Source: an uncultured Gammaproteobacteria bacterium
GTDB lineage: Bacteria > Pseudomonadota > Gammaproteobacteria > Steroidobacterales > Steroidobacteraceae
DNA: 64,000 nucleotides
Assembly: GCA_963705495.1 (NCBI GenBank)
Contig: CAVPJQ010000020.1
Span: 4,504-68,503, forward strand
Reading direction: 5' to 3'
The notes beneath the pieces are model-generated. The model made no database searches and had not been told where the DNA came from. It saw nothing but the letters and a program-made list of their open reading frames with translations. The translations under genes and the position numbers were made by a program. Shown in pieces: positions 26,870 to 58,301 of this stretch; the first letter of the stretch is position 1, and every line of letters begins with the position of its first letter.

Positions 26870-28265
26870 TCAGATCGCGCGCAGGTACCACTCGTAGTCG
26901 CGATCCGTGATCTCGGCGTGGAAGCGGTCGCATTCTTCGCGACGGCACGTCGCGAACAGGTCGTGATAACGCTTGCCGAGGTACTGCGGCAGCACGGTTC
27001 CCTTGTCGAATGCATCGAGCGCCGCTTCCCAGCGCAGCGGCAGCCCAACCCTTTCCTCGATGACCTCGCCCTGCGCAACCATCGGGCCGGGTTCGATGCG
27101 GTTGGTGATTCCGTGGTGAATGCCCGCGAGAATCGCCGCCATCACCAGGTAGGGATTCCCATCGGCGCCACCGGGTCGATGTTCGATACGCGTGTCCTCG
27201 GGTGCTGAAAGTGGCACCCGCAGCGCGACCCCACGATGATTGACGCCCCAGTTGGGCGCGAGCGGGACGAACAGTCCGGGCCGATAGCGTCGATAGGAAT
27301 TCGCCGTAGGCGCGAAGATCGCCATGGATTCGGCCATCGTTGCCGCAAGACCGCCGACGGCGTGGCGCAGCGTGTCGGAAAATGGTTGCTCCGGAGCCAG
27401 GCCCGGCAAACACATTGCGACCGGATTTATCCGTAAGGCTGACGTGCACGTGCAGGCTGCAGCCCGCTGCCTGCGCAAACGGTTTCGCCATGAAGCTCGC
27501 GCCCAGGCCGTGCCGTCTCGCGACAGCCTTGACCGCCCGCTTCAAGAGTACGGCGTGGTCGCACGCACGCTCTGCGTTGGCCACGTGACGCAGATTTACC
27601 TCGAACTGGCCCGGCGAGAATTCCTTCAGCGTGGCGCCCGCGGGGATGTTCTGTGCTTCGCAGACCGCGTACAGCTCGGCCAGGAACGGATCGACATCCT
27701 CGACGTCCTCCATGCTGCCGTACTGTGGCCCATCCTGCGGCCGACGCGTCCCCGGTATGTTGCCAACCTTCGGGGAGGGGCGATTGCCGTCCGAGACCGG
27801 ATCCGCTGAATCGAGCAGATAGAACTCGAGCTCCGTCGCCGCCACGGCTGTCAGCCCCAATTCCTGCAGCGGTCGTGCAGCGTTTCTGAGCACCTGGCGC
27901 GGGTCGGCGAAGAACGGCTCGCCATTGGAATTCGCCATCACGAGCAGCAGCTGCGCGGTCGGCACCTGCGCCCAGGGCACGGGCGCAAGAGAGCCAGGCA
28001 CGGCCGTCGAGATCGCGTCTGGATCACCGTCACGGCTCCCGCTGTCGATGCGCTCGAACGTCTGCCCCTTGCTGTCGAGCAGCACAGTTGCGCCGCAGAA
28101 GTTGAGGCCTTCCTTGAAGGGCTTCGCGAACTCGTCACGCACGACTCGCTTGCCGCGCAGGATTCCCAGCATGTCCGGTTGCAGGAGCTCGAGCAGCTGC
28201 GTATCCGGGTATCGTTCGAGATAGGCCTGCAGCTCCCCAGGCGCGCGATTCGTTTCTTTGTTCAT
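26870..28265 (-). pseudogene. glutamine synthetase family protein (gamma-glutamylpolyamine synthetase, PuuA-like), one frame interruption
   Basis: MNKETNRAPGELQAYL...ELEFYLL...KEFSPGQFEVNL...ASFMAKPF then, in another frame, NSYRRY...NHRGVALRVP...RIEHRPGGADGNPYL. The frame change is near 27400. Its ATG overlaps the upstream stop (ATGA). Confidence 0.85.
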
Positions 28266-29100
28266 GAGTTCTTCCCCGCCGATTTGCCCGTGGCGCGGGC
28301 GCTGCGCCACGCGACTGCAGCCTTCGCCCCTTCGCGTTTCAGGATGGCATTGAATTCGCGCGACTCCGCGGACTCGGAAGTTTCGATGGTCACGTTCAGT
28401 TCGAGCGCCTGCAGCAGTGCCTCGCGCATGCCCGCCGATGTCGAGGCTGCGGTTGATCGCCTGTTTCGTCAGTTTCACGGCCAGCTGGATCATTGGCGGC
28501 GACGCGCCGGGCAAGCTCGAGAGTCCGGTCGAGCGCCTGTCCTGCCGGGACGACGCGATTGATCAGCCCCATGTCGAGCGCGTCGGCCGCGGTGACCCGA
28601 TCATCGCCGCTGAGGAGCAGATACTTCGCGCATTTCGGCCCAGCGAGCCAGGGCAGCAGCATCGCTACGATGCCGCTTCCGAATCGGACCTCTGGCGCAC
28701 CGAAAAAGCAGTCCTCGGACGCGACCGTGAGATCGCAGGCGAGCGCGAGCTCCATGGCACTGCCGAGGCAGTAGCCATGTGTAGCAGCGAGCGTGACCTT
28801 GGGACAATCCCAGAAGCGCATGATGATCTCAAAGTCGTTGCGCAACGCCTGGCGGACGTGCTCGGGTTCGGGCTTGCCGGCGCTTTCGATTTCCATGTCC
28901 AGATCGAAGCCGGCCGAGAAGGCGCGGCCGGCACCGGCGAGCACGATCGCGCGAACCGAGAGATCCGCTTCCGCGGCGTCGAGCGCACTTCCAAGTTGAG
29001 CGATCATCTGTTTGTTGATCGCGTTCAGTTTGTCGGGCCGGTTGAGCATCAACAGGGCGATGCCATCGCGAAGCTCGCTGCAAACCAGTGCACCGGCCAT
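28262..29100 (-). pseudogene. enoyl-CoA hydratase/isomerase (crotonase) family protein, two frame interruptions
   Basis: IALLMLNRPDKLNAI...LAGAGRAFSAGFDL...GYCLGSAMELALACD. C-terminus recovered in two other frames (IQLAVKLTKQAINRSLDIGG, MREALLQALELNVTIE...). Frame changes lie near 28495 and 28430. Confidence 0.8.
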
Positions 29101-29110
29101 CTGCGTCACC

Positions 29111-30635
29111 TCAGGACAGCCGAAACCACGCGGACTTCGACTGCATGTAGCTCTTGATGCTGTCGAAGCACTTGTCGCGCGCGTGACCCGACTGCTTGTA
29201 GCCGCCAAACGGCTGGGTCATGTCGCCTTCGTCGAAGGAGTTGATCCAGATGATGCCGGCCTCGATACCGCGCACCAGCCGGAACGCGGTGTCGAGATCG
29301 CGGGTCCAGACGCCGGCGGCAAGCCCGTAGATGGTGTCATTCGCTATGGCGATGGCCTCGTTCGACTCCATCGAACGGAATCACGGTGGCGACCGGGCCC
29401 GAAGATTTCCTGGCGTGCAATCGTCATGTCGTTACGCACGTCGGTGAAGAGAGTAGGGCTGACGTATGCGCCTGCATCCATACCCCGCGGTGCGCCGCCG
29501 CCGAACTGCAAGCGCGCGCCCTCGCGTCGTCCGGTCTCGATCAGGTTCAGCACCCGTTGCTGCGCTTCGCGCGTTACCAGCGGACCGAGGTTCGTCGCGG
29601 GATCGAGCGGATCACCCGGCTGAAAGGCGTCCTTGCCGAGCTCGATGAATCGCTCGACGAACCGCTCGTGGAGCGAGCGATCGACGAGCAGCCGCGAGCC
29701 GGCATTGCAGACCTCCCCCATGTTGGAAAATATCCCACGGTAGGCGGCGGTGACCGCACGATCGAGATCCTGCGACGTCGGCGAGGAACACCTGCGGTGA
29801 CTTGCCGCCGCACTCGAGCGCGACCTGCTTCATGTTCGACTGGCCCGCGTACTGGAGGATCAGCTTCCCGACCTCGGTCGAACCCGTGAAGGTGATCTTC
29901 GCGACGTCGGCGTGCAGCGCGAGCGCCTTGCCAGCGACTTCGCCCAGTCCGTTGACGACGTTGAACACGCCCGGCGGCCCGCCCGCCTCGACGAACAGTT
30001 CCGCAAGTCGCAGGCAACTCATGGGCGCCTGTTCCGCGGGCTTGAGGACCACCGTGTTGCCGGCGGCCAGCGCGGGAGCGATCTTCCACACGGCCATCAG
30101 CAGCGGATAGTTCCACGGCGAGATCGCGCCGACGACGCCGAGCGGCTCGCGCAGGACCATGTGCATGACGCCGGCTTCCGTGTTCGTGACGCTCGCCCTC
30201 GATCTTGTCGACGCACTCCGCCATGAAGCGAATCGTGTCGATGACGGAAGGCAGATCGACGCCGACCACGTCGGCGATCGGTTTGCCCATGTCGAGTGTT
30301 TCGAGCACCGCGAGGGATTCGGCGTGCTGTTCCACCAGCGTCGCGAAGCGATACATGATCTCCATGCGCTGCCGGGGCGCGATCCGTGACCAGGATCCGT
30401 CCTTGAACGCGCGCCTGGCCGCCGCAACTGCGCGATCGATGTCCTGCTCGGTGCCTGCCGACATCTCCGCGAGCGGTTCGCCGGTCGCCGGATTGACGGT
30501 CGCGAATCGTCCGCCTTTCGCGGCATCGACGTATCGACCCTCGATGAAGAGGCGTGTCTCGATGCGGGCGCGCGCCGCGTTCGCCGCAGCCTGCCAGCGC
30601 ACCTTGTCGTAGTTGCCTAGTGTCTGAAGGCTCAT
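29111..30635 (-). pseudogene. NAD-dependent aldehyde dehydrogenase (PuuC/PauC-like), at least four frame interruptions
   Basis: Four ORF pieces tile one ALDH: [11 protein letters not shown]...[56 protein letters not shown]...IANDTIYGLAAGVWT...GGYKQSG. Frame changes lie near 30190, 29760, 29397 and 29365. Confidence 0.85.
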
Positions 30636-32760
30636 CGAGCTTGCCTCGCTTGTGGCTCGACCTGGTGATGCGGCTGGCGACCGACGATGAGTGCATCGAC
30701 GATGACGCAGCCATTCGCGTGCACGATCACCGGATTCAAATCGATCTCACTCGACTCGATCGCCGAGACCGGCGACCACCGCGGAAAACTGCGCCGCCGT
30801 CCTGCAGAATGCGTCCACGGCTAGCGGGCGACTTGTAGCGCGGGCTGTGCAGAAGAGCGCCGAGCTTCAGCCGCTCGACTAACCTATGGGCTTCGGCGGC
30901 ATCGAAGGGCGGCAAAGCATAGACCACATCGGCGAGCGCCTCCACGTGCACGCCGCCGAATCCGACCAGCACGACAGGTCCGAACTGATCGTCGTGAACC
31001 ATGCCGAGCAGCATCTCCACGCCCGGGGTGCGGATCATCGGTGCGACCAGTGCGCGCGGACCGATCCGGTTCGACAGGTCCTGGTAAGCAGCGTCAGATC
31101 GGCCTCGTCCTCGATGTTCATCCGTACGCCGTCGCGGTCCGACTTGTGGTCGATGCCGCGCATGGCAGTCTTGAGGACGACGGGATAGCCGAGCTCGCGC
31201 GCGGCCGCGCGCGCTTCCAGCGCGCTCTCGACGATGCGACCCGGGTTGGCCGGGCAACTGGAAGTCCCGCAGCAGCGTCATCGCCTCGTGTTCATCGAGC
31301 TTCGCGTGGCTCGCGAGATGAGTGCGCCACTGGGTGAGTACCGGCTCCGGCAGCTGCGAACACAGGCCCGCGCTCGCGCGCTTGATGGTCGCGATAGTCC
31401 AGCAGGCACTTCGCCCCGCGCAGAAACGAACGGACGCCGTCGAGCACCGGGAAACCTGCACGTGTCGAGGCGATGACCTGCGCAGTCGGTTCCGGTACCC
31501 TGGTGATTGGCAACGAGAAATGCAGGCTTGCCGGACGCCGCGTGCCCCGCGCGCAGGTAGTCGAGATAACCGGAATGGATGCCGCCCCCTGCGACGCGAT
31601 CATGGATGACCGCGCCGAAGGCAGCGCCCGGATCACACATCAACGCGGCGAAGCATTCCTGCATCGCGACGTGATAGTCCGGGCCGCCGGTGCTCCAGGC
31701 ATCGAGGGGATTGATCGGCGGCAAGCCGGGATCAAGGAGTGCAGCGAGCTGCGCCGTGGTGGCGGAGCGAGATCTGCGTGAGCGGCACGCGCGCCTCATG
31801 AGCCAGATCGATGAGCAGCTGCCGTTCACCGCCCGAGTCGTGAATCGATACCAGACCGCCGGCCCCGACCGCGATGCGGCTGCGCGAACATGATGAGGGC
31901 CGTGGCGAGCTCATCCATGTCGTCCACGCGCTGCACGCCGTAGCGATCGAACAGCGCCTGATACACGGCGTCCTCGCCGGCGATGGCGCCCGAATGCGAG
32001 ACGGCCAACCTGGCGGACGAGCTCCGTACGACCCACCTTCAGCGCGACGATGGGTATGCCGCGCTCGTTGCGCCTTCTCGAACGCGCGAGCAAGCCCTTG
32101 CGGATTGCGCGCGGTCTCCATGAACAGGCCCACGGCGCGGGTCGTCGGCTGATCGAGCGCGAAGTCCAGGTACTCGTCCATCGTGACCGCCAGTTCCTGG
32201 CCGGTCGATACCACGAGGTTGAAGTCGATGCGCTCCTCGCTATCGACGATGCCGCACATTCCGGAGCCCGAGTGACTGATGTAGGCGACGTTTCCGCCGC
32301 GCGCGTGCACTCGCGTCTCGAATCCGCACGCCCAGATGCCAGCGGCGAAATTGTAGAAGCCCATGCCGTTGGCGCCGCAGACCACGAGTCCTGATGCGCG
32401 AATCTTCGCGAGCACGCGCTCCTGAAGATTTGGCTTGCGATCCTGCGCCAGCACGAGCGAAGACATGATCGTTGCGGCGCGCGCGCCATGAGCGATGACC
32501 TCGTCGAGCGCTGCTTCGATGCGCTCGTCGCTGACCGCGAAGATCACGTGCTCGACCGGCTCCGGCAGGGCCGCGAGTGAAGGAAAGCACGGCACACCGC
32601 AGACCGATTGATAGCGAGGGTTGACCGCAAACAGTGCACCATCGAATCCGCCTTTGAGGAGGTTTGCGACCTCGTGCGACCGACGGTTCCGGTGCGCTCG
32701 GTCGCGCCCACCACAGCGATTGAGTGTGGGACGAAGCAAGGGTTCCAGGCGATGAGGCAT
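30632..32760 (-). pseudogene. ADP-forming acyl-CoA synthetase (CoA-binding, succinyl-CoA-ligase-like and ATP-grasp domains), about eleven frame interruptions
   Basis: Pieces in all three frames tile one roughly 709-aa protein: SIAVVGATERTG, FAVNPRYQSVCGVPCF, VCGANGMGFYN, YISHSGSG, IPIVALKVGRTE, AVSHSGAIAGEDAVYQALFDRYGV, NPLDAWSTG, EIDLNPVIVH. Its stop overlaps the ALDH start (ATGA). Confidence 0.75.
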
Positions 32761-32783: not shown

Positions 32784-33980
32784 TCAGAAGTCCCCGGCGG
32801 GAGTGGCGCGGCGCCGCGGAGGATCGAAGAACACACCTTCGACCACGAGGCATCGCGCCATCACGCGCGACCACTTGAGCTCGCGCTGGTAATAGATTTC
32901 CGCCCAAAGCTCATCCCCCGGCTTACCCCAGGGCATGTTCAGCGAAGCGAGCGCGATGTTTGACTTTGCAGACGGCGACCATTCCGCGGACGTTACGGTA
33001 CCCACGACATTGCCATTGCGGTGAGCGTCGTAGATATAAGAGGAGCGTGCGGGCTTGTTACCTTCGACGTCCAGTCTCACCAGCCGATAGCGTGAGCCAC
33101 GGCGCTGCTCCTCGAGCAAGGCGCGGCGACCATTGAAATTGGGCTTGCCGAAGTCGACCAGACGGCCCAGATCGAGCTCGAACGGCGAGCGTGCACGATC
33201 GGGGTGGATCGCCTGGTCGGCGGGCAGGAAATCCACCTGCGCCTGGATGAAACCGGCCTCGATGCGCGCGACTTCCAGTGCATGAGTGCCCATTGGACGG
33301 ATCCCGTAAAGCGCTCCTTTTTCGAACAGGGCGTCCCAGAGCGCGAGCGCCTGTGAGGGCTCGACCCACAGCTCATAGCCGAGATCGCCCGTGAAACCGG
33401 TGCGTGAGACCATCAGCTCGCCGCCGGCAAACGGGAAATAGGCGATGCCAAACGGCGAGAGGCGTTCGATGCCAGAGCATCCGATAGCCTTCAGCACCGC
33501 ACAGCTGGTGGGTCCCTGCAGAGCGAGGGCGGCAACGTCGTGAGTGTCCTCGACGATTGATACGTCGAAACCGTGAGCTGAGCGCGACAGCCATTCGAGC
33601 TGGCGTTCCTGCGAGCAAAGTCGGTAGTCGCCTTCGCGAAGGTGAAACACCGTGCCATCGTCGATGACCTTGCCGTCATCGTTGCACCAGACGCTGTAGC
33701 CCACCCTGCCGGGCTTGATCTTGGCGACATCACGCGTGATCAGCCGGTTCAGGAACGGCAACGCGTCGGCGCCGGTAATGCGGTGCTTCGTCATCGGCGT
33801 GAGATCGAACACCGCGCAGGCGTTACGGATCGCCGCGTATTCCAGTGCCTCGTCGAAGTATGCATCTGCGGTCGTGTAGTCCTTCCACCGATGCCATTCG
33901 TTCAACGTGTTGAGCGCGGACGTGCGCGGATGGAACGGGGTCTGATAGACCGCGGTCCGGAAATGTTCCTTGTGCATCAT
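32784..33980 (-). CDS. GcvT-family aminomethyltransferase (folate-binding), stand-alone, intact
   Basis: 398 aa. NACAVFDLTPMTKHRITGADALPFLNRLITRD, SRTGFTGDLGYELW, ARIEAGF. Its ATG overlaps the upstream stop (ATGA at 33980-33977). Confidence 0.85.
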   Translation of the reverse strand: MMHKEHFRTAVYQTPFHPRTSALNTLNEWHRWKDYTTADAYFDEALEYAAIRNACAVFDLTPMTKHRITGADALPFLNRLITRDVAKIKPGRVGYSVWCNDDGKVIDDGTVFHLREGDYRLCSQERQLEWLSRSAHGFDVSIVEDTHDVAALALQGPTSCAVLKAIGCSGIERLSPFGIAYFPFAGGELMVSRTGFTGDLGYELWVEPSQALALWDALFEKGALYGIRPMGTHALEVARIEAGFIQAQVDFLPADQAIHPDRARSPFELDLGRLVDFGKPNFNGRRALLEEQRRGSRYRLVRLDVEGNKPARSSYIYDAHRNGNVVGTVTSAEWSPSAKSNIALASLNMPWGKPGDELWAEIYYQRELKWSRVMARCLVVEGVFFDPPRRRATPAGDF

Positions 33981-35557
33981 GCCGCGCGCTCCTGGCGGAG
34001 CACCGCGTGGGCTGCGTTCTTGCCCGCAGCCCCCATCACACCGCCGCCCGGGTGACATCCGGCGCCACACAGGTACAAACCGTTTACGGGCATCGCGTAT
34101 TGGGCCGCGCCCGGAACCGGCCGCAGCATGAGGAACTGATCGAGGGCGAGTTCGCCGTGGTGCCAGTGACCGCCGGTGATTCTGAATTCGCTTTCGATGT
34201 CGACCGGCAGGAGCAATTCGGATGCGATCACCTGGCGACGCAGGCCGGGAGCATATCGTTCGAGCACAGCCAGCGTGGCTTCGAGAAGCGCGGCTCGTGC
34301 CTTGTCAGTGCTTGCGCGCGGATCGAACGGCGCGTACTGCACGATCGCCGACAGCACGTGCTTGCCAGCCGGCGCCAGGGTTCTGTCATGGACGCTGGGG
34401 ATCGTGATCTCCAGTGCCGGAGCCGGCGAGCATTCACCGTATTTCGCGTGATCGAACGCGTGTTCGATGTAGACCGGATCCGGAGCGACAACCAACCGTT
34501 CACCCGCGAGATCCGGCTGCAGCCCCGCGAAGGAGGGCAGGCCATCGAGCGCGAGGTGCAGTTTCGCCGCCATTCCTTTGGTCCGAATGTGCCGGATTCG
34601 GTGCACGAAGCCTGTTTCGAGGTGGCGGGCGCCGAGCAGTTGGAGCAGCGTGCGTGAGGGATCCGCGTTCGAGATCACCGTAGTGGCTCCGACCTGCTCT
34701 CCGTTCTCGAGCTCCACGCCGGATACGCGATCGCCTTCGAGCATGATGCGTGCAACCGGGCTGCCGGTGCGCACGGTCGCTCCGCTCGCGGTCGCAGCCT
34801 TACCGAGTGCCTCGCTCACCGCGCCCATCCCGCCTTCCGGCAGCGACAAGCCACCGGCCACGCCCATCGCCTGCCCGCTCAGCCGGTGCAGCAACGCCAG
34901 CACCGAGTTGTTCGAGCGTGGCGCGAGATTCGTGCCCAACACTGCATCGAGTGCGAGGGTGCCCTTGAGTAGTGGTGAATCAAACGTCTCTTCGAGGACG
35001 TCGAAGATGTTGATGCCCGCGATACGCAGAAACTCACGCATTGAATCGCGGCCCAGGCGACGGATGTCGAGGCCCAGCATCGCCGCCGAGATGAGCTCCG
35101 ATCGGCCGCCGCCCAGGAGTCGCGGTGGACGGCGGTTGTGCTGTTGCCCGAGTACCCGCGCAAACCGCAGCATCTGCGCCTGGTATTCCCGTAGCGCAGT
35201 TCGGTCCTGCTCCGGCAGAGAGCCCGACTGCAGCTCCGCTCCATGCAGCACCAGGTGATTGCCGTTCGCATCGAGGGCGACGGTGCGCAGGTCGGCGCGC
35301 GCGGTCCTGAGTCCGTGCTGCGCCAGGCTGAGCTCGCGGCTGATGCTCGGATCGAGCAGATAGGAAAGATGTGCGCAGGCGGAAACTCGAAACCCCGGCG
35401 CAAAGTCGCGCGTGACCGCGGCGCCACCGATGCGGTTCGAAGCCTCGAGCACCAATACTTCGCGCCCCGCCTTGGCGAGGTATGCGGCGCACACGAGGCC
35501 GTTGTGTCCCGCGCCGATGATGATTGTGCGGTTGCCCTTGTTCATGGCGTCAGTCAT
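33977..35557 (-). CDS. NAD(P)/FAD-dependent oxidoreductase, phytoene-desaturase (CrtI/COG1233) family, copy B, intact
   Basis: 526 aa. IIIGAGHNGLVCAAYLAKAGREVLVLEASNRIGGAA and C-terminal LYLCGAGCHPGGGVMG. Confidence 0.85.
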   Translation of the reverse strand: MTDAMNKGNRTIIIGAGHNGLVCAAYLAKAGREVLVLEASNRIGGAAVTRDFAPGFRVSACAHLSYLLDPSISRELSLAQHGLRTARADLRTVALDANGNHLVLHGAELQSGSLPEQDRTALREYQAQMLRFARVLGQQHNRRPPRLLGGGRSELISAAMLGLDIRRLGRDSMREFLRIAGINIFDVLEETFDSPLLKGTLALDAVLGTNLAPRSNNSVLALLHRLSGQAMGVAGGLSLPEGGMGAVSEALGKAATASGATVRTGSPVARIMLEGDRVSGVELENGEQVGATTVISNADPSRTLLQLLGARHLETGFVHRIRHIRTKGMAAKLHLALDGLPSFAGLQPDLAGERLVVAPDPVYIEHAFDHAKYGECSPAPALEITIPSVHDRTLAPAGKHVLSAIVQYAPFDPRASTDKARAALLEATLAVLERYAPGLRRQVIASELLLPVDIESEFRITGGHWHHGELALDQFLMLRPVPGAAQYAMPVNGLYLCGAGCHPGGGVMGAAGKNAAHAVLRQERAA

Positions 35558-37166
35558 CTCGCCACCCTTCGGGCACGAGGTTGGGTCGATTGAGGTCCAG
35601 CAGGATCTCGCGCGCGGCGTTAGCGCCCGGTGCAGCCATCACGCCGCCGCCCGGGTGAGTGCCCGAGCCACACATGTAGAAGCCTTTGACTGGTCCGCGA
35701 TACTGCGCGTAGCCCGGGAAGGGCCGGTTGAACAACAGCTGATCCATCGTCAGCTCGCCCTGAAAGATGTTGCCCTCGGTCAGGCCGACTTCATTCTCGA
35801 GCTCGCGCGGCGTGCGCACTTCGACGTGGCGAATCAGCTGCTTGAAGTTCGGGCTGTAACGCGCGATCTGGTCGAGCACCGTTTGCTTGAACCCGTCGCG
35901 GTCCTGATCTGTCCAGTCGCGTCCATGGATCTTCGGCGGTACGTACTGCACGAATACCGACATGAAGTGCTTGCCGGCCGGCGCCATGGTCGGATCCGTC
36001 ATGGACGGAATCAGCAGATCAAGGTACGGCTCTTTCGACCAGGTGCCGTTCTTCCAGTCATCGTACGCGCGCTCCATTTTCTCGAGCGAATCGAGAAAAT
36101 GGATGTCGCCGAAGCGCAGCGGGTTGTCGCGCCCGAGCGCCGGAAACTCGGGAAGACCATCGAGCGCGATATTGAGCTTCCCCGATGAGCCGCGGATCTT
36201 GAAGTTGCGCGCGCGTTTGACGAATTGGGGCGTCAGGTCTTTTTCGTCGAACAGTTTGCCGTAAGTGCGCTTCGGGTCGAGGTTCGAGACGACAATCTTG
36301 GCGCGGTACTCGTTGCCATTCGCGGTCGCGACGCCTGTGACTCGGCCATTGCGAACCATCACACGCTCGACGGGTGCATCGGTGATGATTTCTCCACCGT
36401 GAGACTTGAACGACGATGCGATCGCCTTGGACACGGCACCCATCCCGCCGCGCGCGAACCCCCAGGAGCCGATGGACCCGTCGACGTCGCCCATGTAGTG
36501 ATGCAGGAGCACGTAGGCGGTCCCGGGCGAATAGACGCCGAGCGCGGTCCCGATGATGCCGCTTCCGGAGAGATGCGCCTTGATGAGGTCCGATTCGAAG
36601 TATTCGCCGAGAAAATCAGCGATGCTCATCGTGTAAAAGCGAATGGTGTCGTAGATCACTTCTTCGCCGAGCTTCGCGAATTCCTTGGCGAGATAGATCA
36701 TTTCGCGAATGTCCCGGGGCCGGAGCGAGGAGGGATCCGGGGGTGTGCGCAGCAACAACGGGCGGATGAACTTGCACTGACGCATGACGTCGGTCGAATA
36801 CCGGCTGTAGGCGTCGGCATCACGCGCGTTGTGTCGCGCGAATTCCCGCCGCTGCACGTGCTCGTCCGTGTAGTTGCCGAGGATGTCTCCGGTGCGCGTG
36901 ATCGTCACCCCACCGCCGTAGGGCACGACCTGTAATCCGTGGCGCGCCAGTTGCAGGTCGCGGAAGATCTCCGGTCGCAACAGGCTGCAAACGTACGAGC
37001 AGTTCGAGTAGATCCAGCCTTCCTGAATCTCGCGGCTGACCGCCGCACCGCCGATCCACGGGTTACGCTCGAGCACCAGCACCTTGAGCCCGGAGCGCGC
37101 CAGGTAGGCGGCGTTCGTCAGGCCGTTGTGGCCGGCGCCGACGACGATGGCATCGTAGTTCGTCAC
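35550..37166 (-). CDS. NAD(P)/FAD-dependent oxidoreductase, phytoene-desaturase (CrtI/COG1233) family, copy A, intact
   Basis: 538 aa. VVGAGHNGLTNAAYLARSGLKVLVLERNPWIGGAA and C-terminal FYMCGSGTHPGGGVMA. It overlaps the next gene by 8 nt. Confidence 0.85.
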   Translation of the reverse strand: MTNYDAIVVGAGHNGLTNAAYLARSGLKVLVLERNPWIGGAAVSREIQEGWIYSNCSYVCSLLRPEIFRDLQLARHGLQVVPYGGGVTITRTGDILGNYTDEHVQRREFARHNARDADAYSRYSTDVMRQCKFIRPLLLRTPPDPSSLRPRDIREMIYLAKEFAKLGEEVIYDTIRFYTMSIADFLGEYFESDLIKAHLSGSGIIGTALGVYSPGTAYVLLHHYMGDVDGSIGSWGFARGGMGAVSKAIASSFKSHGGEIITDAPVERVMVRNGRVTGVATANGNEYRAKIVVSNLDPKRTYGKLFDEKDLTPQFVKRARNFKIRGSSGKLNIALDGLPEFPALGRDNPLRFGDIHFLDSLEKMERAYDDWKNGTWSKEPYLDLLIPSMTDPTMAPAGKHFMSVFVQYVPPKIHGRDWTDQDRDGFKQTVLDQIARYSPNFKQLIRHVEVRTPRELENEVGLTEGNIFQGELTMDQLLFNRPFPGYAQYRGPVKGFYMCGSGTHPGGGVMAAPGANAAREILLDLNRPNLVPEGWRDD

Positions 37167-37178: not shown

Positions 37179-38517
37179 TTATCCCGCGCGATGCGCGGGC
37201 CCGGAGTTTCGTGCCGCGTTCACGACGCGATCCACGGCGATCTCGAAGCGCTCGAGGGTTTCCGTGAGGCAGCGTTCATCGTGCGCCTCGCAGATGAACC
37301 AGGGTTCGCGCGAGTCCGGCTCGCACAGCACACCCAGATCGTGCAGCTCCGGTGCCAGCGCCTCGTAGAAGGTGTAATCGCTGGAGGCCCAGTCGCGATA
37401 GTCTCGCGGCGGCGTCTCGCTGAAGAACAGTCCGCTCATCGATGGGATGCCCGCTGAACGAGTGCCTGATGCCCCGCTGCGACAGAATCTGGCTGATGCC
37501 GGCGCGCAGGCGCGTGCCGTACTCCGCGATGGTCTGCAGCGCGGGCGTTTCGGCAAGGATCTGCAGGCACTTTTCGGCGGCGGCGAGCGCGACCGAATGA
37601 GCGGTGAATGTGCCGCCGTGCACGACGCCCTTGCCGAGCCGGCGCATGATGTCCTCCCGGCCGGCCAGCACCGAAATCGGGTAGCCATTCGCCATCGCCT
37701 TGGCGAACGTGCACAGATCGCTGCGCACACCAAACAGTTCCTGGCAGCCGCCCCGTGCCACACGGAACCCGGTCTTCACCTCATCGATGATCAACAGGAC
37801 GCCGTAGCGGTCGCAAAGTGCGCGCGCGGCGTGCAGATATTCGCGTGTCGCCGCGATCGAGCAGCAGTTGCCCATGATCGGCTCGATGAGAAACGCTGCG
37901 ATCTGGTCCCCATAGGCCTTGAACACGCTTTCCAGCCGATCGGCATCGTTCATTGGCACCGCGTGCAGGAGCGAGCGCAGGATTCCCGGCACGCCGGCGC
38001 TGTAGGGGACGAGGTGCGGGTCTCCGGCCGACGGGCGCCAGCCCTCGATCAAAGTCGTCCACAGCGCGGCGTCAAACACGCCGTGGTATCCGCCTTCGAT
38101 GACGACGTACGAGTCCCGGCCCGTGTGCGCGCGGGCGAGACGCAATGCGGCCATGACGGCCTCGGTGCCCGAGTTTGAAAAGCGCACCAGCTCTGCGGCC
38201 GGCACCATGCGCGAGATGCGCTCCGCCACCGCGTATTCGCGCTCCGTCCCGAGCGCAAAAACGCCACCCACCTCGATGCCGGCGCGGGCTGCCTCATCGA
38301 TTCTGGGATCCGCGTAGCCCAGGATGCACGGGCCGTAGGCCAGCCGGTAGTCGATGTATTCATTGCCATCGATGTCGCGGAGGCGGGCACCCTTGCCAGA
38401 GGCCGCGTAGATGGTCTTGTCGTCGCCCCAGTAACGGAAGTTCGATGAGACGCCCAGCGGCAGCCGGGTGATGGCCTTCTGGAAGTGCGCGTTGGATTTT
38501 CTGAGGCTTCGTGCCAT
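37179..38517 (-). pseudogene. class-III (PLP) aminotransferase, glutamate-1-semialdehyde aminomutase-like, one frame interruption
   Basis: GGGAGGG RBS plus ATG 38517. GARLRDIDGNEYIDY, FSNSGTEAVMAALRLARAHTGR, LIIDEVKTGFR, TFAKAMANGYP. The C-terminus continues in the 37179..37763 frame. The frame change is near 37440. Confidence 0.85.
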
Positions 38518-38658: not shown

Positions 38659-39417
38659 ATGCCCGCGTGGGCTTACGAGTTGCTGGCTTTGCCGCAGTCG
38701 AACCAGAACCCCAAGCGGCGGCGCCCGGTCAAGGCGTCGCGCCGCACGGCTGCGCCCGAAGAACGCCGGCAGCAGCTGATCGAGGCGACCATCCGCTGCG
38801 TCGCGAATCGGGGCCTGGCGCAGACCACCATCGCCACCGTGGCGCGGGAGGCGGGCCTGAGCCAGGGCATCATCAACCTGCACTTTCGCAGCAAGGACCG
38901 CTTGCTCATCGCTACGCTGCGATACCTGGCGGACGAATACCGCAGCGCTTGCGAGGAAGCGGCTGCCGCGGCGGGAGCTTCGCCTGTCGCCGGGCTGCAG
39001 GCGATGGTCGATCTGGATTTTCAACGCAGCATCTGCACGCGGGACAAGCTCGCTGTCTGGTTTGCCTTCTGGGGTGAGCGCCGATTCCGGCCAACGTATC
39101 GGCGCATCTGCGCAGCGCGCGACAAGTCCTACGAAGATCGGGTGCGCGTCCTGTGCGCAAGACTGTGTCAGCAGGGCGCCTATCCCGATGTGGATCCGGC
39201 GCTGGTGGCTGACGGACTCTCGGCACTGACCGATGGTCTGTGGCTTGACCTGCTCGTCAGGCCCGACTCGATGAGCCGGGAGCTGGCGCGACGAATCAGC
39301 ATGTCGTATCTCGCGGATGCTTTTCCGCGTCACTTCGAGCGTCCCGCGATTGAGCGACGCATCGCGGCCGATCGACGCGTCACCGCGAACCGACCGGCTG
39401 TGGTCGGCGCAAGATAG
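38659..39417 (+). CDS. TetR-family (BetI-type) transcriptional regulator
   Basis: 252 aa. HTH LIEATIRCVANRGLAQTTIATVAREAGLSQGIINLHFRSKDRLL. The C-domain AVWFAFWGERRFRPTYRRICAARDKSY is paralogous to the TetR part at 25007. Confidence 0.85.
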   Translation: MPAWAYELLALPQSNQNPKRRRPVKASRRTAAPEERRQQLIEATIRCVANRGLAQTTIATVAREAGLSQGIINLHFRSKDRLLIATLRYLADEYRSACEEAAAAAGASPVAGLQAMVDLDFQRSICTRDKLAVWFAFWGERRFRPTYRRICAARDKSYEDRVRVLCARLCQQGAYPDVDPALVADGLSALTDGLWLDLLVRPDSMSRELARRISMSYLADAFPRHFERPAIERRIAADRRVTANRPAVVGAR

Positions 39418-39423
39418 CTCATC

Positions 39424-40593
39424 ATGCAGATCATCCTTGATGAGGCGGCGAGGGCGTGGCGCGAGCGTGCCGCGCAGTTCGCCAGCCAGGAATTGATCCC
39501 CTGGGAGGTAGAAGCCGAACTCAACGAGGGGAAATTGCCACCCGAGGTGAAGGCGCGGCACCGCAAACTCGCAGTCGAACTAGGCTTCAGCGCGATGGAC
39601 GTACCGGCTGCGCATGGCGGCCGCGACGCGCGTGTGATCGATCAGGTGGCGGTCTGGGAGCAGCTTGGCAGGGTCACCAACGCGTTGTGTTGGTGCTTTT
39701 CCGAGCCTCATCGCTGGATGTTCGAGGCCTGCAGCCGGGAGCAGCTCGAGCGGTACGTGCTGCCCCTCATGAGCGGCAAGCGCAAGGAGTGCTACGCAAT
39801 CACGGAGAGCGGCTCGGGCTCGGACGTCGAGTCGATCCAGACCACCGCGCAACGCTGTCCCGGCGGCTACTCGATTCGCGGGGAGAAGTGGTACGTCACG
39901 AGCGCCAATCACGCCGATTATTTCATCCTGCAGGCGCGGCTCACCGACGGACCGCACGCGGGGTCGCACTCGCTCTTCTTCATCGACAAGGATCAGCCCG
40001 GCATCGAGCTGGTGCGCACACCGGCTTTCAGTCACACCTTCAGTGATCATCATCCGATCTACCGGTTCAACGACGTCGTGGTGCCGGAGAGCCAGCGCCT
40101 CGGCGCGGAAGGCGACGGCATGCAGCACGCCCATAGCTGGTTCCGCCGCGAACGGCTGATGATCGCGGCGCGCTGCTGCGGCGCCTCCAGTCGCTTGATT
40201 GAAGAGGCGAGCGCCTTCGCCAGCACGCGCATGATCGGCGGTGAGCCGCTGGCTGAACGGCAGATGATCCAGGCGATGCTGGCGGACAGCGTGACCGAGC
40301 TCTGGGCGGCACGGCTCATCACCTACGAGGCCGCGCAGGCGCACGATCGCGGCGAAGAGCTGAGGTCCCTCCATGCGCGCTGCGCGATCGCGAAGCTCTA
40401 CGCCTCGGAGGCCGCGAACCGGATTGTCGACCGCGCATTGCAGATATTCGGCGGGCGAGGCTACATGCGCGAAAACTGCGTCGAGCGATTCTTTCGGGAA
40501 TTGCGCGTGGATCGGATCTGGGAGGGCGCCAGTGAAATTCAGCGTCTCATCATCGCGCGAGCGCTGCAGAAGCGCGGGCTCGAGGGGATGTAA
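39424..40593 (+). CDS. acyl-CoA dehydrogenase family protein, intact
   Basis: 389 aa. CYAITESGSGSDV, GEKWYVTSA, QIFGGRGYMREN...RIWEGASEIQ. Confidence 0.85.
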   Translation: MQIILDEAARAWRERAAQFASQELIPWEVEAELNEGKLPPEVKARHRKLAVELGFSAMDVPAAHGGRDARVIDQVAVWEQLGRVTNALCWCFSEPHRWMFEACSREQLERYVLPLMSGKRKECYAITESGSGSDVESIQTTAQRCPGGYSIRGEKWYVTSANHADYFILQARLTDGPHAGSHSLFFIDKDQPGIELVRTPAFSHTFSDHHPIYRFNDVVVPESQRLGAEGDGMQHAHSWFRRERLMIAARCCGASSRLIEEASAFASTRMIGGEPLAERQMIQAMLADSVTELWAARLITYEAAQAHDRGEELRSLHARCAIAKLYASEAANRIVDRALQIFGGRGYMRENCVERFFRELRVDRIWEGASEIQRLIIARALQKRGLEGM

Positions 40594-40596: not shown

Positions 40597-41688
40597 GTGA
40601 AAGCGCTTGCGCTCCTCATCGCCGCAGTCGCTGCCGCGTGTGCGGTCGCTGCCGGGAGCGCAGAAGAGAAGATCCTGAACGTCTTCACGTGGCCGGACTA
40701 CATCGGTCCGAACACCATTGCAGACTTCGAAAAGGAGTACGGAATCAAGGTGAACTACGACACCTACGATTCCACCGAAATGGCGGAGGCGCGGCTACTG
40801 GCCGGTCGTACGGGTTACGACGTGGTTGATCACGCCGAACGTTATTCGGCGCGCCTGATCCCGATCGGCGTCTACCGTCCGCTCAATCGCGCCAAGCTCA
40901 CCAACTGGGGGAACCTCGACCCCTGGGTGCTCAACACCCTGCAGTCAGCGGATCCGGGCAATCGCTATGGCGTGCCGTATCTGTGGGGCACGACCGGATT
41001 TACCTACAACGTGAAGATGATCCGTGAGCGCATGCCGAACGCACCGGTCGACAGCGCAGACATGATCTTCAAGCCGGAGGTCGCGCGCCATTTCGCGGAT
41101 TGCGGCATCTCGTTCCTCGATGAGCCCACCGACGTGATCCCGATGGCCATGATCTATCTCGGCCACGATGCCAACAGCGTTGATCCTGCCGATCTCGCGC
41201 AAGTCGAGAAGCTTCTCAAGGCGGTGCGCCCGTACATCCGCTACTTCAGCTCGGCGAAGATGCTGGTCGACTTGCCCAACGAGGAGGTCTGCATTGCGAT
41301 GAGCTGGTCGGGAGACTACGCGCAGGCGATGTACCGGGCACAGGAGGTTGGCAAGCCGGTCGAGCTCGCATACACGACACCGCGCGAAGGGACGCTGGCG
41401 TGGTTCGACCTGTGGTTCATTCCGGCGGATGCGCCGCATCCCGACAACGCCCACCTGTTCCTGAATTACCTGTTGCGCCCGAAGGTGATCGCGGACATCA
41501 GCAACGAGGTCCGGTATGCGGCGCCAAACATTCCGGCCATGCCCTTCGTTGTGCCCGAGGTTCGCAATGATCCCGCGGTGTACCCGCCCGAAGAGGTGCG
41601 GCTCAGCCTGCACAAGGGCGTTCTTCACAGCCCGAAGGAGGAGCGCGCGAGGTCCCGTCTGTGGTCCCGCGTGAAGACCGGACTGTGA
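40597..41688 (+). CDS. potF: polyamine (putrescine/spermidine-type) ABC transporter periplasmic binding protein
   Basis: GTG start and signal peptide. Collinear similarity to PotF: LNVFTWPDYIGPNTIADFEKEYGIKVNYDTYDS, YLWGTTGFTYN, FLNYLLRPKVIADIS. Confidence 0.85.
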   Translation: MKALALLIAAVAAACAVAAGSAEEKILNVFTWPDYIGPNTIADFEKEYGIKVNYDTYDSTEMAEARLLAGRTGYDVVDHAERYSARLIPIGVYRPLNRAKLTNWGNLDPWVLNTLQSADPGNRYGVPYLWGTTGFTYNVKMIRERMPNAPVDSADMIFKPEVARHFADCGISFLDEPTDVIPMAMIYLGHDANSVDPADLAQVEKLLKAVRPYIRYFSSAKMLVDLPNEEVCIAMSWSGDYAQAMYRAQEVGKPVELAYTTPREGTLAWFDLWFIPADAPHPDNAHLFLNYLLRPKVIADISNEVRYAAPNIPAMPFVVPEVRNDPAVYPPEEVRLSLHKGVLHSPKEERARSRLWSRVKTGL

Positions 41689-42788
41689 GCGAACCTCCAT
41701 CGCCGCTGGTACAGATCCGTGAACTCTCGAAGCATTTCGATGGCGTCGTAGCGGTGGATCGAGTGTCCCTCGACATTCTTCGCAGCGAATTGTTCGCGAT
41801 CCTGGGCAGCTCCGGATGCGGCAAGACCACGCTGCTCAGGATGCTGGCGGGTTTCGAGCCGCCGACTTCGGGCCGGATCCTCATCGACGGCGTCGATGTC
41901 ACCGATGCGCCCCCTTACGAGCGCCCGGTCAACATGATGTTCCAGTCCTACGCACTGTTTCCGCACATGACCGTGACCCAGAACGTCGCCTACGGGCTCA
42001 AGAAGGAACGGGTTCCAGCCGCCCAGATCAAGGAGCGGGTCGGCGAGATGCTCGCGCTCGTCAAGCTCGAACCTCTCGCCGACCGCAAGCCAGACAAGCT
42101 TTCCGGTGGGCAGCAGCAGCGCGTGGCGCTCGCTCGAGCTCTGGTCAAGCGGCCCAAACTGCTGCTGCTCGATGAACCACTGGCGGCGCTCGACAAGAAG
42201 CTGCGCGAGCACACGCAGTTCGAGCTCGCCAACATCCAATACCAACTTGGCACGACCTTCGTCGTCGTCACGCACGACCAGGACGAAGCGATGACGCTTG
42301 CGAGCCGCATCGCCGTGATGGCGGAAGGGCGGATCGCGCAGGTGGGCACTCCAGGCGAGGTGTACGAGTACCCGGCCAACCGCTACGTCGCAAGCTTCGT
42401 CGGCAACATCAACCTGATCGAGGGTCGCGTAGCGAGTGCGAATGCAGGACGTTTATCGCTGCGTTGTGATGCGCTCAATGCGGATCTGGCGGTGCTGTGC
42501 GAGGAGGAGATCGGGTCCGGCGCTGCGGTCAGCGTGGCCGTGCGTCCCGAAAAGATCACGATCAGCCGCAACGCCCCGAACGGCGAGGATCGCAACGTCG
42601 TCAAGGGCATTGTCCGCGACCTCGGCTACTTCGGCGATCAATCGCTGTATCGCGTGCGGCTGCAGAGTGGAGCCGTGTTGCAGGTCAGCGCACAGAATCT
42701 GCGGCGCTCAGCAAAGCTGACCGTGGAGTGGGACGACGAAGTGTATCTGTCGTGGGAAGTCTCCAGCACGATCCTGTTGCGCTCATGA
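41685..42788 (+). CDS. potG: polyamine ABC transporter ATP-binding protein
   Basis: GTGA overlap with potF. Walker A GSSGCGKTT, signature LSGGQQQRVALARAL, Walker B LLLLDEP. Confidence 0.85.
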   Translation: MSEPPSPLVQIRELSKHFDGVVAVDRVSLDILRSELFAILGSSGCGKTTLLRMLAGFEPPTSGRILIDGVDVTDAPPYERPVNMMFQSYALFPHMTVTQNVAYGLKKERVPAAQIKERVGEMLALVKLEPLADRKPDKLSGGQQQRVALARALVKRPKLLLLDEPLAALDKKLREHTQFELANIQYQLGTTFVVVTHDQDEAMTLASRIAVMAEGRIAQVGTPGEVYEYPANRYVASFVGNINLIEGRVASANAGRLSLRCDALNADLAVLCEEEIGSGAAVSVAVRPEKITISRNAPNGEDRNVVKGIVRDLGYFGDQSLYRVRLQSGAVLQVSAQNLRRSAKLTVEWDDEVYLSWEVSSTILLRS

Positions 42789-51788: not shown

Positions 51789-51795
51789 GGCGGGA

Positions 51796-54889: not shown

Positions 54890-54935
54890 TGTTCGCTCTC
54901 TCCGCAGGAAATCCGGGCTACTAGTCTTCGTCACG

Positions 54936-55925: not shown

Positions 55926-56018
55926 TGGCTGCTCCATTTGCGCAGTGAGGAGGCCGCGTTCTCAGTTCGAATACCGCTCGGCCCTCGTAAGGATACAACA
56001 GGCTCCGCGAGCGCGGAT

Positions 56019-58284: not shown

Positions 58285-58301
58285 GGCAGTAACCTCATCG
58301 A

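What the first reader, a model, noticed from the sequence alone, without database searches (positions are those of the whole stretch)
32784..37166. Stand-alone GcvT-like protein coupled to two CrtI-type flavoproteins: a possible split, folate-dependent N-demethylase
In dimethylglycine oxidase, the sarcosine oxidase alpha subunit and N-methylglutamate dehydrogenase, a GcvT-fold folate domain is fused to or complexed with a DAO-type flavoprotein. There it captures the methylene unit released by amine oxidation.

Here a free 398-aa GcvT homologue is start/stop-overlapped with two paralogous 526- and 538-aa flavoproteins. These belong to the phytoene-desaturase/amine-oxidase fold (COG1233), not the DAO fold. 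The overlaps are an 8-nt overlap and an ATGA overlap.

These three genes are also the only part of the eight-gene operon with no frame interruption (4.4 kb). That is consistent with either selection or better consensus quality.

This would be a different structural solution for oxidative N-demethylation or deamination.
Basis: inference. Interest (0 to 1): 0.65.

Follow-up and report, generated by a model that had tools for sequence, protein, structure and literature searches.

The report
PYROXD2-type flavoproteins coupled to folate protein
Two bacterial relatives of the orphan human enzyme PYROXD2 are always encoded just upstream of a stand-alone folate-binding protein, which suggests an undescribed way of stripping methyl groups off amines and gives a testable function for the human gene.

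Summary
Three overlapping minus-strand genes encode two paralogous FAD flavoproteins (538 and 526 aa) and a 398-aa stand-alone GcvT-fold protein.

- **Not the ordinary assignments.** The flavoproteins are not carotenoid desaturases. They are full-length homologues of mammalian PYROXD2 (39% and 36% identity). PYROXD2 is an orphan mitochondrial flavoprotein whose variants explain about 50% of human plasma N6-methyl-lysine variance. The GcvT-like protein scores below every GcvT cut-off. It is most like the formaldehyde-capturing folate domain of TMAO demethylase.
- **Conserved unit.** The order A-B-GcvT is kept in 63 of 63 related loci with enough flank, across several different neighbourhoods. 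It is also kept in seven alphaproteobacterial replicons.
- **Frequent partners.** These are a GbcA-like Rieske oxygenase, a class-III aminotransferase, an aldehyde dehydrogenase and a PotF-type transporter.
- **Best reading (about 0.55, inferred).** The trio is a folate-coupled oxidative N-demethylase module for a methylated amine.
- **Frame interruptions.** The frameshifts in neighbouring genes look like consensus errors, not decay.
- **Literature.** I found no description of this arrangement in the searchable literature.

The parts
35550..37166 (-). Flavoprotein A (538 aa), PYROXD2 family, the more conserved paralogue
   Evidence: ORF. Pfam PF01593 over the full length. It is 39% identical (367 bits) to mouse PYROXD2. 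Orthologues are 61-66% identical in Alphaproteobacteria. The GxGxxG...E, GGMG and HPGGG motifs are kept.
33977..35557 (-). Flavoprotein B (526 aa), PYROXD2 family, the faster-evolving paralogue with a clade-specific GGHWHHGEL motif
   Evidence: ORF. It is 36% identical (304 bits) to mouse PYROXD2 and 37% identical to A. It forms its own clade containing Gamma and Alpha orthologues. The FAD motifs are kept. The 8-nt overlap with A is read.
32784..33980 (-). Stand-alone GcvT-fold folate-binding protein (398 aa)
   Evidence: Pfam GCV_T plus GCV_T_C. The best NCBIfam match is the C-terminal half of TMAO demethylase (237 bits), and it scores below all GcvT and DmdA cut-offs. The best PDB match is Tdm 9q5a. 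The alignment keeps TRDV (Tdm R480) and the DDGT motif. The ATGA overlap with B is read.
37179..38517 (-). Class-III aminotransferase, GntE/HemL-like; frameshifted in this window near 37447
   Evidence: tblastn with the intact L002 gene gives 2 pieces. The NCBIfam test was run on the intact L002 orthologue (about 85% identical to the window gene), not on the window gene: GntE 463 bits against a cut-off of 525. It lies next to the trio in many loci.
30635..32760 (-). ADP-forming acyl-CoA synthetase (about 706 aa when intact), multiply frameshifted here
29105..30635 (-). Aldehyde dehydrogenase, PuuC-like, frameshifted here
   Evidence: The NCBIfam test was run on the intact L002 orthologue, not on the window gene: PuuC 552 bits against a cut-off of 850.
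28262..29100 (-). Enoyl-CoA hydratase, frameshifted here
26870..28265 (-). Glutamine-synthetase-like ligase (resembles gamma-glutamyl-amine synthetase), frameshifted here
   Evidence: The NCBIfam test was run on the intact L002 orthologue, not on the window gene: GGputSyn 197 bits and type III GS 188 bits, both below their cut-offs.
25007..26858 (+). BetI-like TetR domain fused to a GbcA-like Rieske oxygenase alpha subunit (about 614 aa), frameshifted near 25177
   Evidence: It is one uninterrupted ORF in 21 of 21 related loci.
38659..39417 (+). TetR-family regulator, transcribed divergently from the operon
39424..40593 (+). Acyl-CoA dehydrogenase
40597..44505 (+). PotF-type polyamine ABC transporter: binding protein, ATPase and two permeases
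   Evidence: The NCBIfam test was run on the intact L002 orthologue, not on the window gene: PotF 374 bits.
44584..45752 (+). Second Rieske oxygenase alpha subunit, split over three frames here
   Evidence: Pfam Ring_hydroxyl_A. The CxH...CRYHGW Rieske motifs are seen in adjacent frames.

Best explanation
The three genes form an autonomous, horizontally mobile catabolic module. It consists of two paralogous FAD enzymes of the PYROXD2 family plus a stand-alone folate-binding GcvT-fold protein.

**Proposed mechanism (inferred).**
1. Each flavoprotein oxidises an N-methyl C-N bond of a tertiary or secondary amine to an iminium.
2. The two paralogues either carry out two successive demethylations (dimethyl to monomethyl to primary amine) or form a heterodimer.
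3. The GcvT-like protein traps the one-carbon unit (iminium or formaldehyde) on tetrahydrofolate as 5,10-methylene-THF. This is what the homologous domain does in TMAO demethylase, dimethylglycine oxidase and sarcosine oxidase.
4. Where a GbcA-like Rieske oxygenase is present, as in this window (two copies), it would remove the first methyl from a quaternary ammonium, which flavin amine oxidases cannot attack.
5. In this operon the resulting primary amine would then be transaminated (class-III aminotransferase), oxidised (ALDH), CoA-activated and beta-oxidised (ADP-forming ligase, ACAD, ECH). Uptake would be by a PotF-type transporter.

The substrate is an N-methylated omega-amine or polyamine-like compound whose identity is unknown.

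**Shown:** gene structure, family assignments, conservation and synteny.
**Inferred:** all of the chemistry and any physical complex.
For: 1. **The trio is the invariant unit.** The order A-B-GcvT is found in 63 of 63 loci with enough flank, across at least four different neighbourhoods.
2. **One-to-one co-occurrence on plasmids.** The seven records carrying an orthologue of A (61-66% identity) are exactly the seven carrying an orthologue of the GcvT-like protein (47-53%). The next-best GcvT-like hits (36% or less) are TMAO demethylases.
3. **Conserved translational coupling.** The 4-nt B/GcvT overlap is kept in 8 of 9 gene-called loci from Gamma- and Alphaproteobacteria.
4. **The GcvT-like protein resembles a formaldehyde-capturing domain.** It aligns best to the THF domain of Tdm, and that domain has been shown to take up channelled formaldehyde (PMC13619132).
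5. **A and B are PYROXD2 homologues**.
6. **Human genetics points to methylated amines.**
   - Human PYROXD2 variants explain about 50% of the variance in N6-methyl-lysine and 48% in N6,N6-dimethyl-lysine. They also affect N-methylpipecolate and NMR signals assigned to TMA and DMA (PMC8109053; PMC5780481).
   - Lower PYROXD2 expression goes with higher levels of these methylated amines (PMC3169529). That is what one expects if the enzyme consumes them.
7. **Recurrent amine-catabolic partners.**
   - A GbcA-like Rieske oxygenase lies within 10 kb in 27 of 44 full-flank loci.
   - It is also present in all four alphaproteobacterial plasmids inspected.
   - A class-III aminotransferase recurs next to the trio.
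8. **A second PYROXD2-like subfamily shows similar associations.**
   - It sits next to a gcvT gene in Shinella sumterensis.
   - It sits next to a Rieske oxygenase in the four named isolates sampled.
   - It sits near MTHFR and a GFA-domain (formaldehyde-activating family) gene in a gammaproteobacterial MAG.
Against: - There are no biochemical data for any member of the family, and PYROXD2 itself has no assigned reaction.
- No A/B-GcvT fusion protein appeared among the 150 best representatives; the single 920-aa hit is a tandem GcvT.
- Many PYROXD2-like homologues have no GcvT or folate gene nearby.
- The Rieske partner is absent within 10 kb in 17 of 44 loci.
- Stand-alone GcvT-family proteins such as DmdA and LigM are methyltransferases in their own right, so the GcvT-like protein may not need the flavoproteins.
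- One aromatic residue that stacks on THF in Tdm (F672) is an Arg here.
- No electron acceptor such as ETF is encoded nearby.
Confidence: 0.55

Rival explanations
1. The partners are in the same pathway but are not mechanistically coupled. The GcvT-like protein would be a DmdA-like methyltransferase that moves a methyl group directly from an onium substrate to THF. The two flavoproteins would do something else, such as polyamine-oxidase-like cleavage at the chain-side C-N bond or a C-C desaturation.
For: - The operon has the same logic as DMSP demethylation: a GcvT-family enzyme, a CoA ligase, an ACAD and an ECH.
- One related locus carries a PF02574 S-methyltransferase beside the trio.
- PF01593 includes polyamine oxidases.
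- The transporter is PotF-type.
Against: - The DmdA model scores only 130 bits against a cut-off of 410, whereas the Tdm folate domain scores 237.
- Strict adjacency and the conserved start/stop overlap of B and GcvT across classes are more than pathway membership usually produces.
- In humans, lower PYROXD2 expression raises rather than lowers the TMA and DMA signals, which argues against amine release by chain-side cleavage.
Confidence: 0.2
2. The trio is an analogue of N-methylglutamate dehydrogenase or heterotetrameric sarcosine oxidase that acts on a gamma-glutamylated or otherwise conjugated N-methyl amine. The GS-like ligase would first conjugate the amine, and the trio would oxidise the conjugate.
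For: - A GS-like ligase lies in the same operon in this window and in about 40 related loci.
- The SoxA family model matches the GcvT-like protein at 146 bits.
Against: - The GS-like gene is missing from most other contexts of the trio.
- No amidase or PuuD-like gene was seen.
Confidence: 0.1
3. [quoted passage not shown]
For: The best NCBIfam names are CrtO and crtI_fam for the flavoproteins, and GcvT models do match the third protein.
Against: - All scores are far below the cut-offs: CrtO 277 and 219 against 1000; crtI_fam 119 and 132 against 238; GcvT 151 against 236 and 212 against 300.
- No carotenoid genes and no gcvH or gcvP were found in the annotated neighbourhoods or among the window ORFs screened.
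- The flavoproteins are about five times closer in bit score to PYROXD2 than to CrtI.
Confidence: 0.02

Closest known systems
Mammalian PYROXD2 (orphan mitochondrial flavoprotein)
   Same: - Full-length homology: 39% and 36% identity, with the same FAD motifs.
- PYROXD2 nests among the bacterial clades in a distance tree.
- Human genetics ties it to N-methylated amines.
   Different: - PYROXD2 is a single gene with no dedicated GcvT partner known.
- Its reaction is unassigned.
- Here two paralogues are coupled to a folate protein.
Dimethylglycine oxidase/dehydrogenase, sarcosine dehydrogenase, heterotetrameric sarcosine oxidase, N-methylglutamate dehydrogenase
   Same: - A flavoprotein is paired with a GcvT-fold folate module that captures the methyl-derived one-carbon unit.
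- Two paralogous flavoenzymes serving successive demethylations has a precedent in DMGDH and SARDH (established knowledge).
   Different: - Those flavoproteins have the DAO fold and are fused to, or stably complexed with, the folate module.
- Here the fold is PF01593/PYROXD2-type and the folate protein is separate.
TMAO demethylase Tdm
   Same: Its C-terminal THF domain is the closest characterised relative of the GcvT-like protein. That domain receives formaldehyde rather than an H-protein-bound aminomethyl group.
   Different: In Tdm the catalytic partner is a Zn-dependent DUF1989 domain fused in cis. There is no flavin and no DUF1989 here.
LSD1/KDM1 and polyamine oxidases (PF01593 amine oxidases)
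   Same: The superfamily is the same. LSD1 is a flavin N-methyl-lysine demethylase that releases formaldehyde (PMC3936616).
   Different: The relationship is only distant. Matches to amine oxidases in the PDB cover just the ~50-80-residue N-terminal FAD-binding region.
CrtI/CrtO carotenoid desaturases and ketolases
   Same: They share the overall fold family (COG1233) and are the best-named NCBIfam models.
   Different: - Scores are far below the cut-offs.
- There is no carotenoid gene context.
- The neighbourhoods are amine-catabolic.
DMSP demethylation pathway (DmdA-DmdB-DmdC-DmdD)
   Same: The operon logic matches: a GcvT-family enzyme, a CoA ligase, an acyl-CoA dehydrogenase and an enoyl-CoA hydratase.
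   Different: - DmdA works alone without flavoproteins.
- The DmdA model scores only 130 against a cut-off of 410.

Membership tests
Glycine cleavage T protein (GcvT) | Score at or above the NCBIfam equivalog/subfamily cut-offs | tested here: not met
   TIGR00528 scores 151.4 against 235.85; PRK00389 scores 211.9 against 300; PRK13579 scores 121 against 459.
Glycine cleavage T protein (GcvT) | Genomic association with gcvH and gcvP | tested here: not met
   None was found among the window ORFs screened or in nine gene-called neighbourhoods. A whole-genome check was not possible.
Glycine cleavage T protein (GcvT) | GcvT fold with its C-terminal barrel | tested here: met
   PF01571 at 194.7 bits and PF08669 at 37.7 bits.
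CrtI / phytoene desaturase family (TIGR02734) and CrtO | Score at or above the family cut-off | tested here: not met
   crtI_fam scores 119.1 and 131.9 against 238.1; CrtO scores 277.4 and 219.2 against 1000.
CrtI / phytoene desaturase family (TIGR02734) and CrtO | Carotenoid biosynthesis gene neighbourhood | tested here: not met
   No crt genes appear in any inspected context.
PYROXD2 family | Full-length homology to animal PYROXD2 that is stronger than to any other characterised family | tested here: met
   367 bits at 39% identity and 304 bits at 36%, both end to end, against 74-81 bits to CrtI. PYROXD2 nests among the bacterial clades. UniRef gives this name to related bacterial proteins.
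PYROXD2 family | Shared catalytic activity | not testable with these tools
   No reaction is assigned to PYROXD2 in the papers found.
Folate-coupled oxidative N-demethylases (DMGO / SoxBDAG type) | GcvT-fold folate module with folate-site residues | tested here: inconclusive
   The fold is present. The Tdm R480 equivalent (TRDV), the F582 equivalent and the DDGT motif are kept, but the F672 equivalent is Arg. THF binding itself was not tested.
Folate-coupled oxidative N-demethylases (DMGO / SoxBDAG type) | DAO-fold flavoprotein fused to or complexed with the folate module | tested here: not met
   The flavoproteins are PF01593/PYROXD2-type; DAO matches only the N-terminal ~50 residues. No fusion was found. 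Complex formation is not testable here.
TMAO demethylase (Tdm) | N-terminal DUF1989 Zn domain fused to the THF domain | tested here: not met
   Only model positions 384-761 of 763 match, scoring 237 bits against a cut-off of 1100. The protein is 398 aa with no extra domain.
DMSP demethylase DmdA | Score at or above the equivalog cut-off | tested here: not met
   PRK12486 scores 130.4 against 410.

The most novel reading that the evidence does not exclude
The PYROXD2 family, animal PYROXD2 included, would be a previously unrecognised class of flavin N-methyl-amine demethylases. Animal PYROXD2 would then be a candidate for the never-cloned free N6-methyl-lysine demethylase of kidney ('epsilon-alkyllysinase'). 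In bacteria, two such enzymes would assemble with a dedicated GcvT-fold protein into a formaldehyde-channelling complex that takes a di- or tri-methylated amine down to the primary amine.
Probability: 0.4. Interest if true: 0.85.

Novelty: new variant of a known kind. Interest (0 to 1): 0.72.

Why it matters
Folate-coupled oxidative N-demethylation is known only with DAO-fold flavoproteins (dimethylglycine, sarcosine and N-methylglutamate enzymes) and with the metal-dependent Tdm. A PYROXD2-fold version would be a third, independent solution.

The wider point concerns the human gene. PYROXD2 underlies one of the strongest metabolite QTLs in humans and is a mitochondrial disease gene, yet the papers I could search assign it no reaction. 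The bacterial gene neighbourhoods give an independent argument that the family handles N-methyl amines:
- a dedicated folate one-carbon trap;
- GbcA-like quaternary-amine oxygenases;
- MTHFR and a formaldehyde-activating enzyme.

They also supply cultured organisms in which this can be tested directly.

Tried and rejected
- **Literature.** Searches combining aminomethyltransferase or GcvT with phytoene dehydrogenase or COG1233, PYROXD2 with demethylase, Rieske with phytoene dehydrogenase and betaine, and all PYROXD2 papers since 2022 found no description of the trio or of a PYROXD2 reaction. The library lacks most subscription journals.
- **Natural fusions.** I looked for a flavoprotein-GcvT fusion among the 150 best 50%-identity cluster representatives of the GcvT-like protein. 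None was found; the 920-aa hit is a tandem GcvT and the 762-aa hit is probably Tdm-type.
- **Old pseudogenes.** I tested whether the frameshifted neighbours are decaying genes. This is rejected: after removing the inserted bases, dN/dS is 0.03-0.17 with essentially no stop codons.
- **Obligatory Rieske partner.** I tested whether the Rieske partner is always present. It is not; it is absent within 10 kb in 17 of 44 full-flank loci.
- **Longest-ORF gene calling.** This was misleading in these GC-rich loci and was replaced by a GC3 filter and by gene calls from the look-up tool.
- **Structure prediction.** I did not run it. Only single chains can be modelled and no coordinates are returned, so it could test neither a complex nor the active site.
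- **Substrate identity.** It could not be narrowed beyond a methylated omega-amine or polyamine-like compound. 5-Aminovalerate betaine, methylated diamines and N-methyl-lysine-like compounds all fit parts of the operon, but none is supported specifically.
Full report
**What is there.** On the minus strand, three ORFs run head to tail:
- flavoprotein A at 35550-37166 (538 aa, GTG start);
- flavoprotein B at 33977-35557 (526 aa);
- a 398-aa GcvT-like protein at 32784-33980.

The junctions read from the DNA are ATGACTGA (an 8-nt overlap of the A stop with the B start) and ATGA (the B stop with the GcvT start). Pfam finds GCV_T and GCV_T_C in the third protein. Both flavoproteins match Amino_oxidase (PF01593) over their full length, while DAO matches only the first ~50 residues. 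A and B are 37% identical.

**The operon and the frame interruptions.** An intact version of the locus from a JGI metagenome (L002) shows the full layout:
- Main operon: class-III aminotransferase, A, B, GcvT-like, ADP-forming acyl-CoA synthetase, aldehyde dehydrogenase, enoyl-CoA hydratase, GS-like ligase.
- Convergent gene: a TetR-Rieske fusion.
- Divergent set: TetR, acyl-CoA dehydrogenase and a PotF-type ABC transporter.

The window is about 93% identical in DNA to two Steroidobacteraceae-like MAG contigs, L004 and L005. Relative to both of them it carries about 19 single-base insertions between 27392 and 32730, one more at 37447, and none in the trio.

If 20 events fell uniformly over the 11.6-kb operon, zero hits in the 4.4-kb trio would have a probability of about 8e-5 (my arithmetic). 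The clustering is therefore real. However, three observations argue against old gene decay:
- Every event is an insertion.
- After removing the insertions, the interrupted genes have dN/dS of 0.03-0.17 and essentially no stop codons.
- Unrelated genes elsewhere in the window are split too: a second Rieske gene, a TonB receptor and the TetR-Rieske fusion.

I read the interruptions as local consensus errors or very recent events. They are not evidence that selection spares the trio.

**What the proteins are.**
- *Flavoproteins.* They fail every carotenoid model: crtI_fam scores 119 and 132 against a cut-off of 238, and CrtO scores 277 and 219 against 1000. The best solved structure, CrtI 4dgk, scores only 74-81 bits.
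- *Link to PYROXD2.* The sequences reminded me of the orphan human protein PYROXD2. I recalled its sequence from memory as a lead and used that to retrieve genuine database entries. I then compared the window proteins with mouse PYROXD2 (P0224). A is 39% identical end to end (367 bits, E 4e-125) and B is 36% (304 bits). That is as close as A and B are to each other.
- *Tree and motifs.* In a distance tree, the A and B clades each contain Gamma- and Alphaproteobacterial orthologues, so the duplication predates the spread of the cassette. Mammalian PYROXD2 nests among the bacterial A-type and single-copy types. Both paralogues keep the dinucleotide-binding motif, GGMG and the C-terminal HPGGG motif. 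B has its own GGHWHHGEL signature and evolves faster (43% against 66% identity between the window and Shinella).
- *GcvT-like protein.* It scores below all GcvT cut-offs and below the DmdA cut-off. Its best model is the C-terminal half of TMAO demethylase (237 bits over model positions 384-761). Its best PDB match is the Paracoccus Tdm structure 9q5a.
- *Folate-site residues.* The alignment keeps the TRDV arginine (Tdm R480), the F582 equivalent and an identical DDGT motif. The canonical T-protein SHMG motif is TPMT here, and Tdm F672 is an Arg.
- *What the Tdm domain does.* It binds THF and receives formaldehyde through a tunnel (PMC13619132).

**Conservation.**
- A scan of one genome per GTDB species found 401 relatives of the GcvT-like protein. 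The 80 best (69% identity or more) are mostly Steroidobacteraceae MAGs.
- In all 63 loci with at least 3.25 kb upstream, A and B sit directly before the GcvT-like gene.
- The neighbourhood changes while the trio does not:
  - the eight-gene operon of this window;
  - a minimal Rieske-A-B-GcvT cassette with an S58 peptidase and an Xaa-Pro-dipeptidase-like amidohydrolase;
  - a GntR-S58-trio-aminotransferase arrangement;
  - a Rieske and PF02574 methyltransferase context;
  - loci where the trio stands among unrelated genes.
- In the plasmid collection, the seven records with an orthologue of A (Shinella, Ensifer, Rhizobium, Fuscovulum, Parasedimentitalea) are exactly the seven with an orthologue of the GcvT-like protein. 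The next-best GcvT-like hits are Tdm proteins.
- The ATGA overlap of B and GcvT is kept in 8 of 9 gene-called loci across the two classes.

**Partners.**
- Every neighbouring Rieske protein tested has GbcA, the glycine betaine monooxygenase, as its best NCBIfam model (116-246 bits, below the cut-off).
- A Rieske gene lies within 10 kb in 27 of 44 full-flank loci and in all four alphaproteobacterial plasmids inspected. The window has two.
- A class-III aminotransferase closest to the guanitoxin enzyme GntE (463 bits against 525) is frequent.
- The alphaproteobacterial loci add a 680-aa OYE-type flavoprotein. By my own recollection this resembles the type that demethylates N-methylproline and dimethylglycine.
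- A second PYROXD2-like subfamily (41% identical to A) points the same way:
  - it is followed directly by a gcvT gene in Shinella sumterensis;
  - it sits beside a Rieske gene in Ancylobacter, Inquilinus, Methyloraptor and Acidiphilium;
  - it sits beside MTHFR and near a glutathione-dependent formaldehyde-activating enzyme in a gammaproteobacterial MAG.
- Other homologues have no such neighbour. None sits with carotenoid genes.

**The human side.**
- The PYROXD2 missense variant rs2147896 explains about 50% of the variance of plasma N6-methyl-lysine and 48% of N6,N6-dimethyl-lysine. It also associates with N-methylpipecolate, trimethyl-lysine and their N2-acetyl derivatives (PMC8109053; PMC5780481; PMC13352909).
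- The haplotype with lower PYROXD2 expression has higher NMR signals assigned to TMA and DMA (PMC3169529). This fits an enzyme that consumes methylated amines.
- No paper I could search assigns PYROXD2 a reaction.
- A kidney enzyme that oxidatively demethylates free N6-methyl-lysine to lysine and formaldehyde was described in 1963-64 (PMC3936616). Linking it to PYROXD2 is my speculation.

**Interpretation.** The most economical reading is that the trio is a folate-coupled oxidative N-demethylase built from a different flavoprotein family than the known ones.
1. A and B oxidise N-methyl groups, either as two successive steps or as a heterodimer.
2. The GcvT-like protein fixes the one-carbon unit on THF.
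3. Where present, the GbcA-like oxygenase handles the quaternary stage.
4. The aminotransferase and ALDH dispose of the resulting primary amine.

I put this at about 0.55.

The main rival, at about 0.2, is that the GcvT-like protein is a self-sufficient DmdA-like methyltransferase and the flavoproteins do another step. A gamma-glutamyl-conjugate variant is possible (0.1). The 'ordinary GcvT plus carotenoid desaturases' reading is essentially excluded. Nothing here shows a physical complex, and no fusion protein was found.

**Novelty.** This is a new variant of a known kind of system. It is sharpened by the PYROXD2 assignment and by the conservation data, and corrected on the meaning of the frameshifts.

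Noticed in passing
window 25007-26858 (+); L002 18156-20000: A BetI-like TetR DNA-binding and ligand domain is fused in one polypeptide to a GbcA-like Rieske oxygenase alpha subunit (about 606-621 aa). It is an uninterrupted ORF in 21 of 21 related loci; in the window it is frameshifted near 25177. A transcription factor fused to an oxygenase is unusual.
   Followed up: partly
window 27392-32730 and 37447: There are about 20 single-base differences from both closest relatives, and all are insertions in the window. They are not in homopolymers, cluster in four adjacent genes and are absent from the trio. dN/dS stays low once they are removed. The cause of this insertion-only, clustered pattern is unexplained.
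   Followed up: partly
window 44584-45752 (+): A second Rieske oxygenase alpha subunit lies directly after the last ABC permease gene and is split over three reading frames. Two Rieske genes also flank the trio in Fuscovulum and Parasedimentitalea.
   Followed up: partly
L098, L100, L101, L102 (Ancylobacter, Inquilinus, Methyloraptor, Acidiphilium): A Rieske oxygenase and a single-copy PYROXD2-like gene lie next to or within one gene of each other (start/stop-overlapped in Acidiphilium, separated by a small HTH-cupin gene in Methyloraptor). In three of the four a binding-protein ABC transporter lies nearby; Ancylobacter also has an aminotransferase and an ALDH.
   Followed up: partly
L099 7001-11148: In a gammaproteobacterial MAG, a PYROXD2-like gene is followed by a Trp_halogenase-type flavoprotein and an MTHFR gene. 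A GFA (formaldehyde-activating) gene and a luciferase-like monooxygenase lie just upstream.
   Followed up: no
L088 5023-14161 (Shinella sumterensis plasmid): This cluster contains ECH, an ADP-forming CoA ligase, a 3-hydroxyacyl-CoA dehydrogenase, a single PYROXD2-like gene, a gcvT that passes the TIGR00528 cut-off, a class II aldolase and a BKACE. It is a second, independent pairing of the two families.
   Followed up: partly
L084 18392-18637; L087 18394-18645: A conserved hypothetical gene of about 81 aa lies immediately after the GcvT-like gene in Shinella and Rhizobium. It matches no NCBIfam family. It could be a small extra subunit.
   Followed up: no
window 9022-10878 (+): One 618-aa ORF matches KdpA (residues 20-519) and then KdpC (511-599), with no KdpB between them. 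This may be a deletion or an assembly artefact.
   Followed up: no
window 45828-48203 (+): A TonB-dependent receptor is split into at least three ORFs in different frames. This is further evidence of consensus problems outside the operon.
   Followed up: no
window 56001-64000: G+C drops from about 0.62-0.65 to 0.58-0.59 over the last 8 kb. I did not examine this region.
   Followed up: no
window 49776-54934 (-): A TPR-sulfotransferase, another class-III aminotransferase and an Amidohydro_3 gene lie here. TPR-sulfotransferase and amidohydrolase genes also flank the minimal Rieske-trio cassette in L092 and L093.
   Followed up: no
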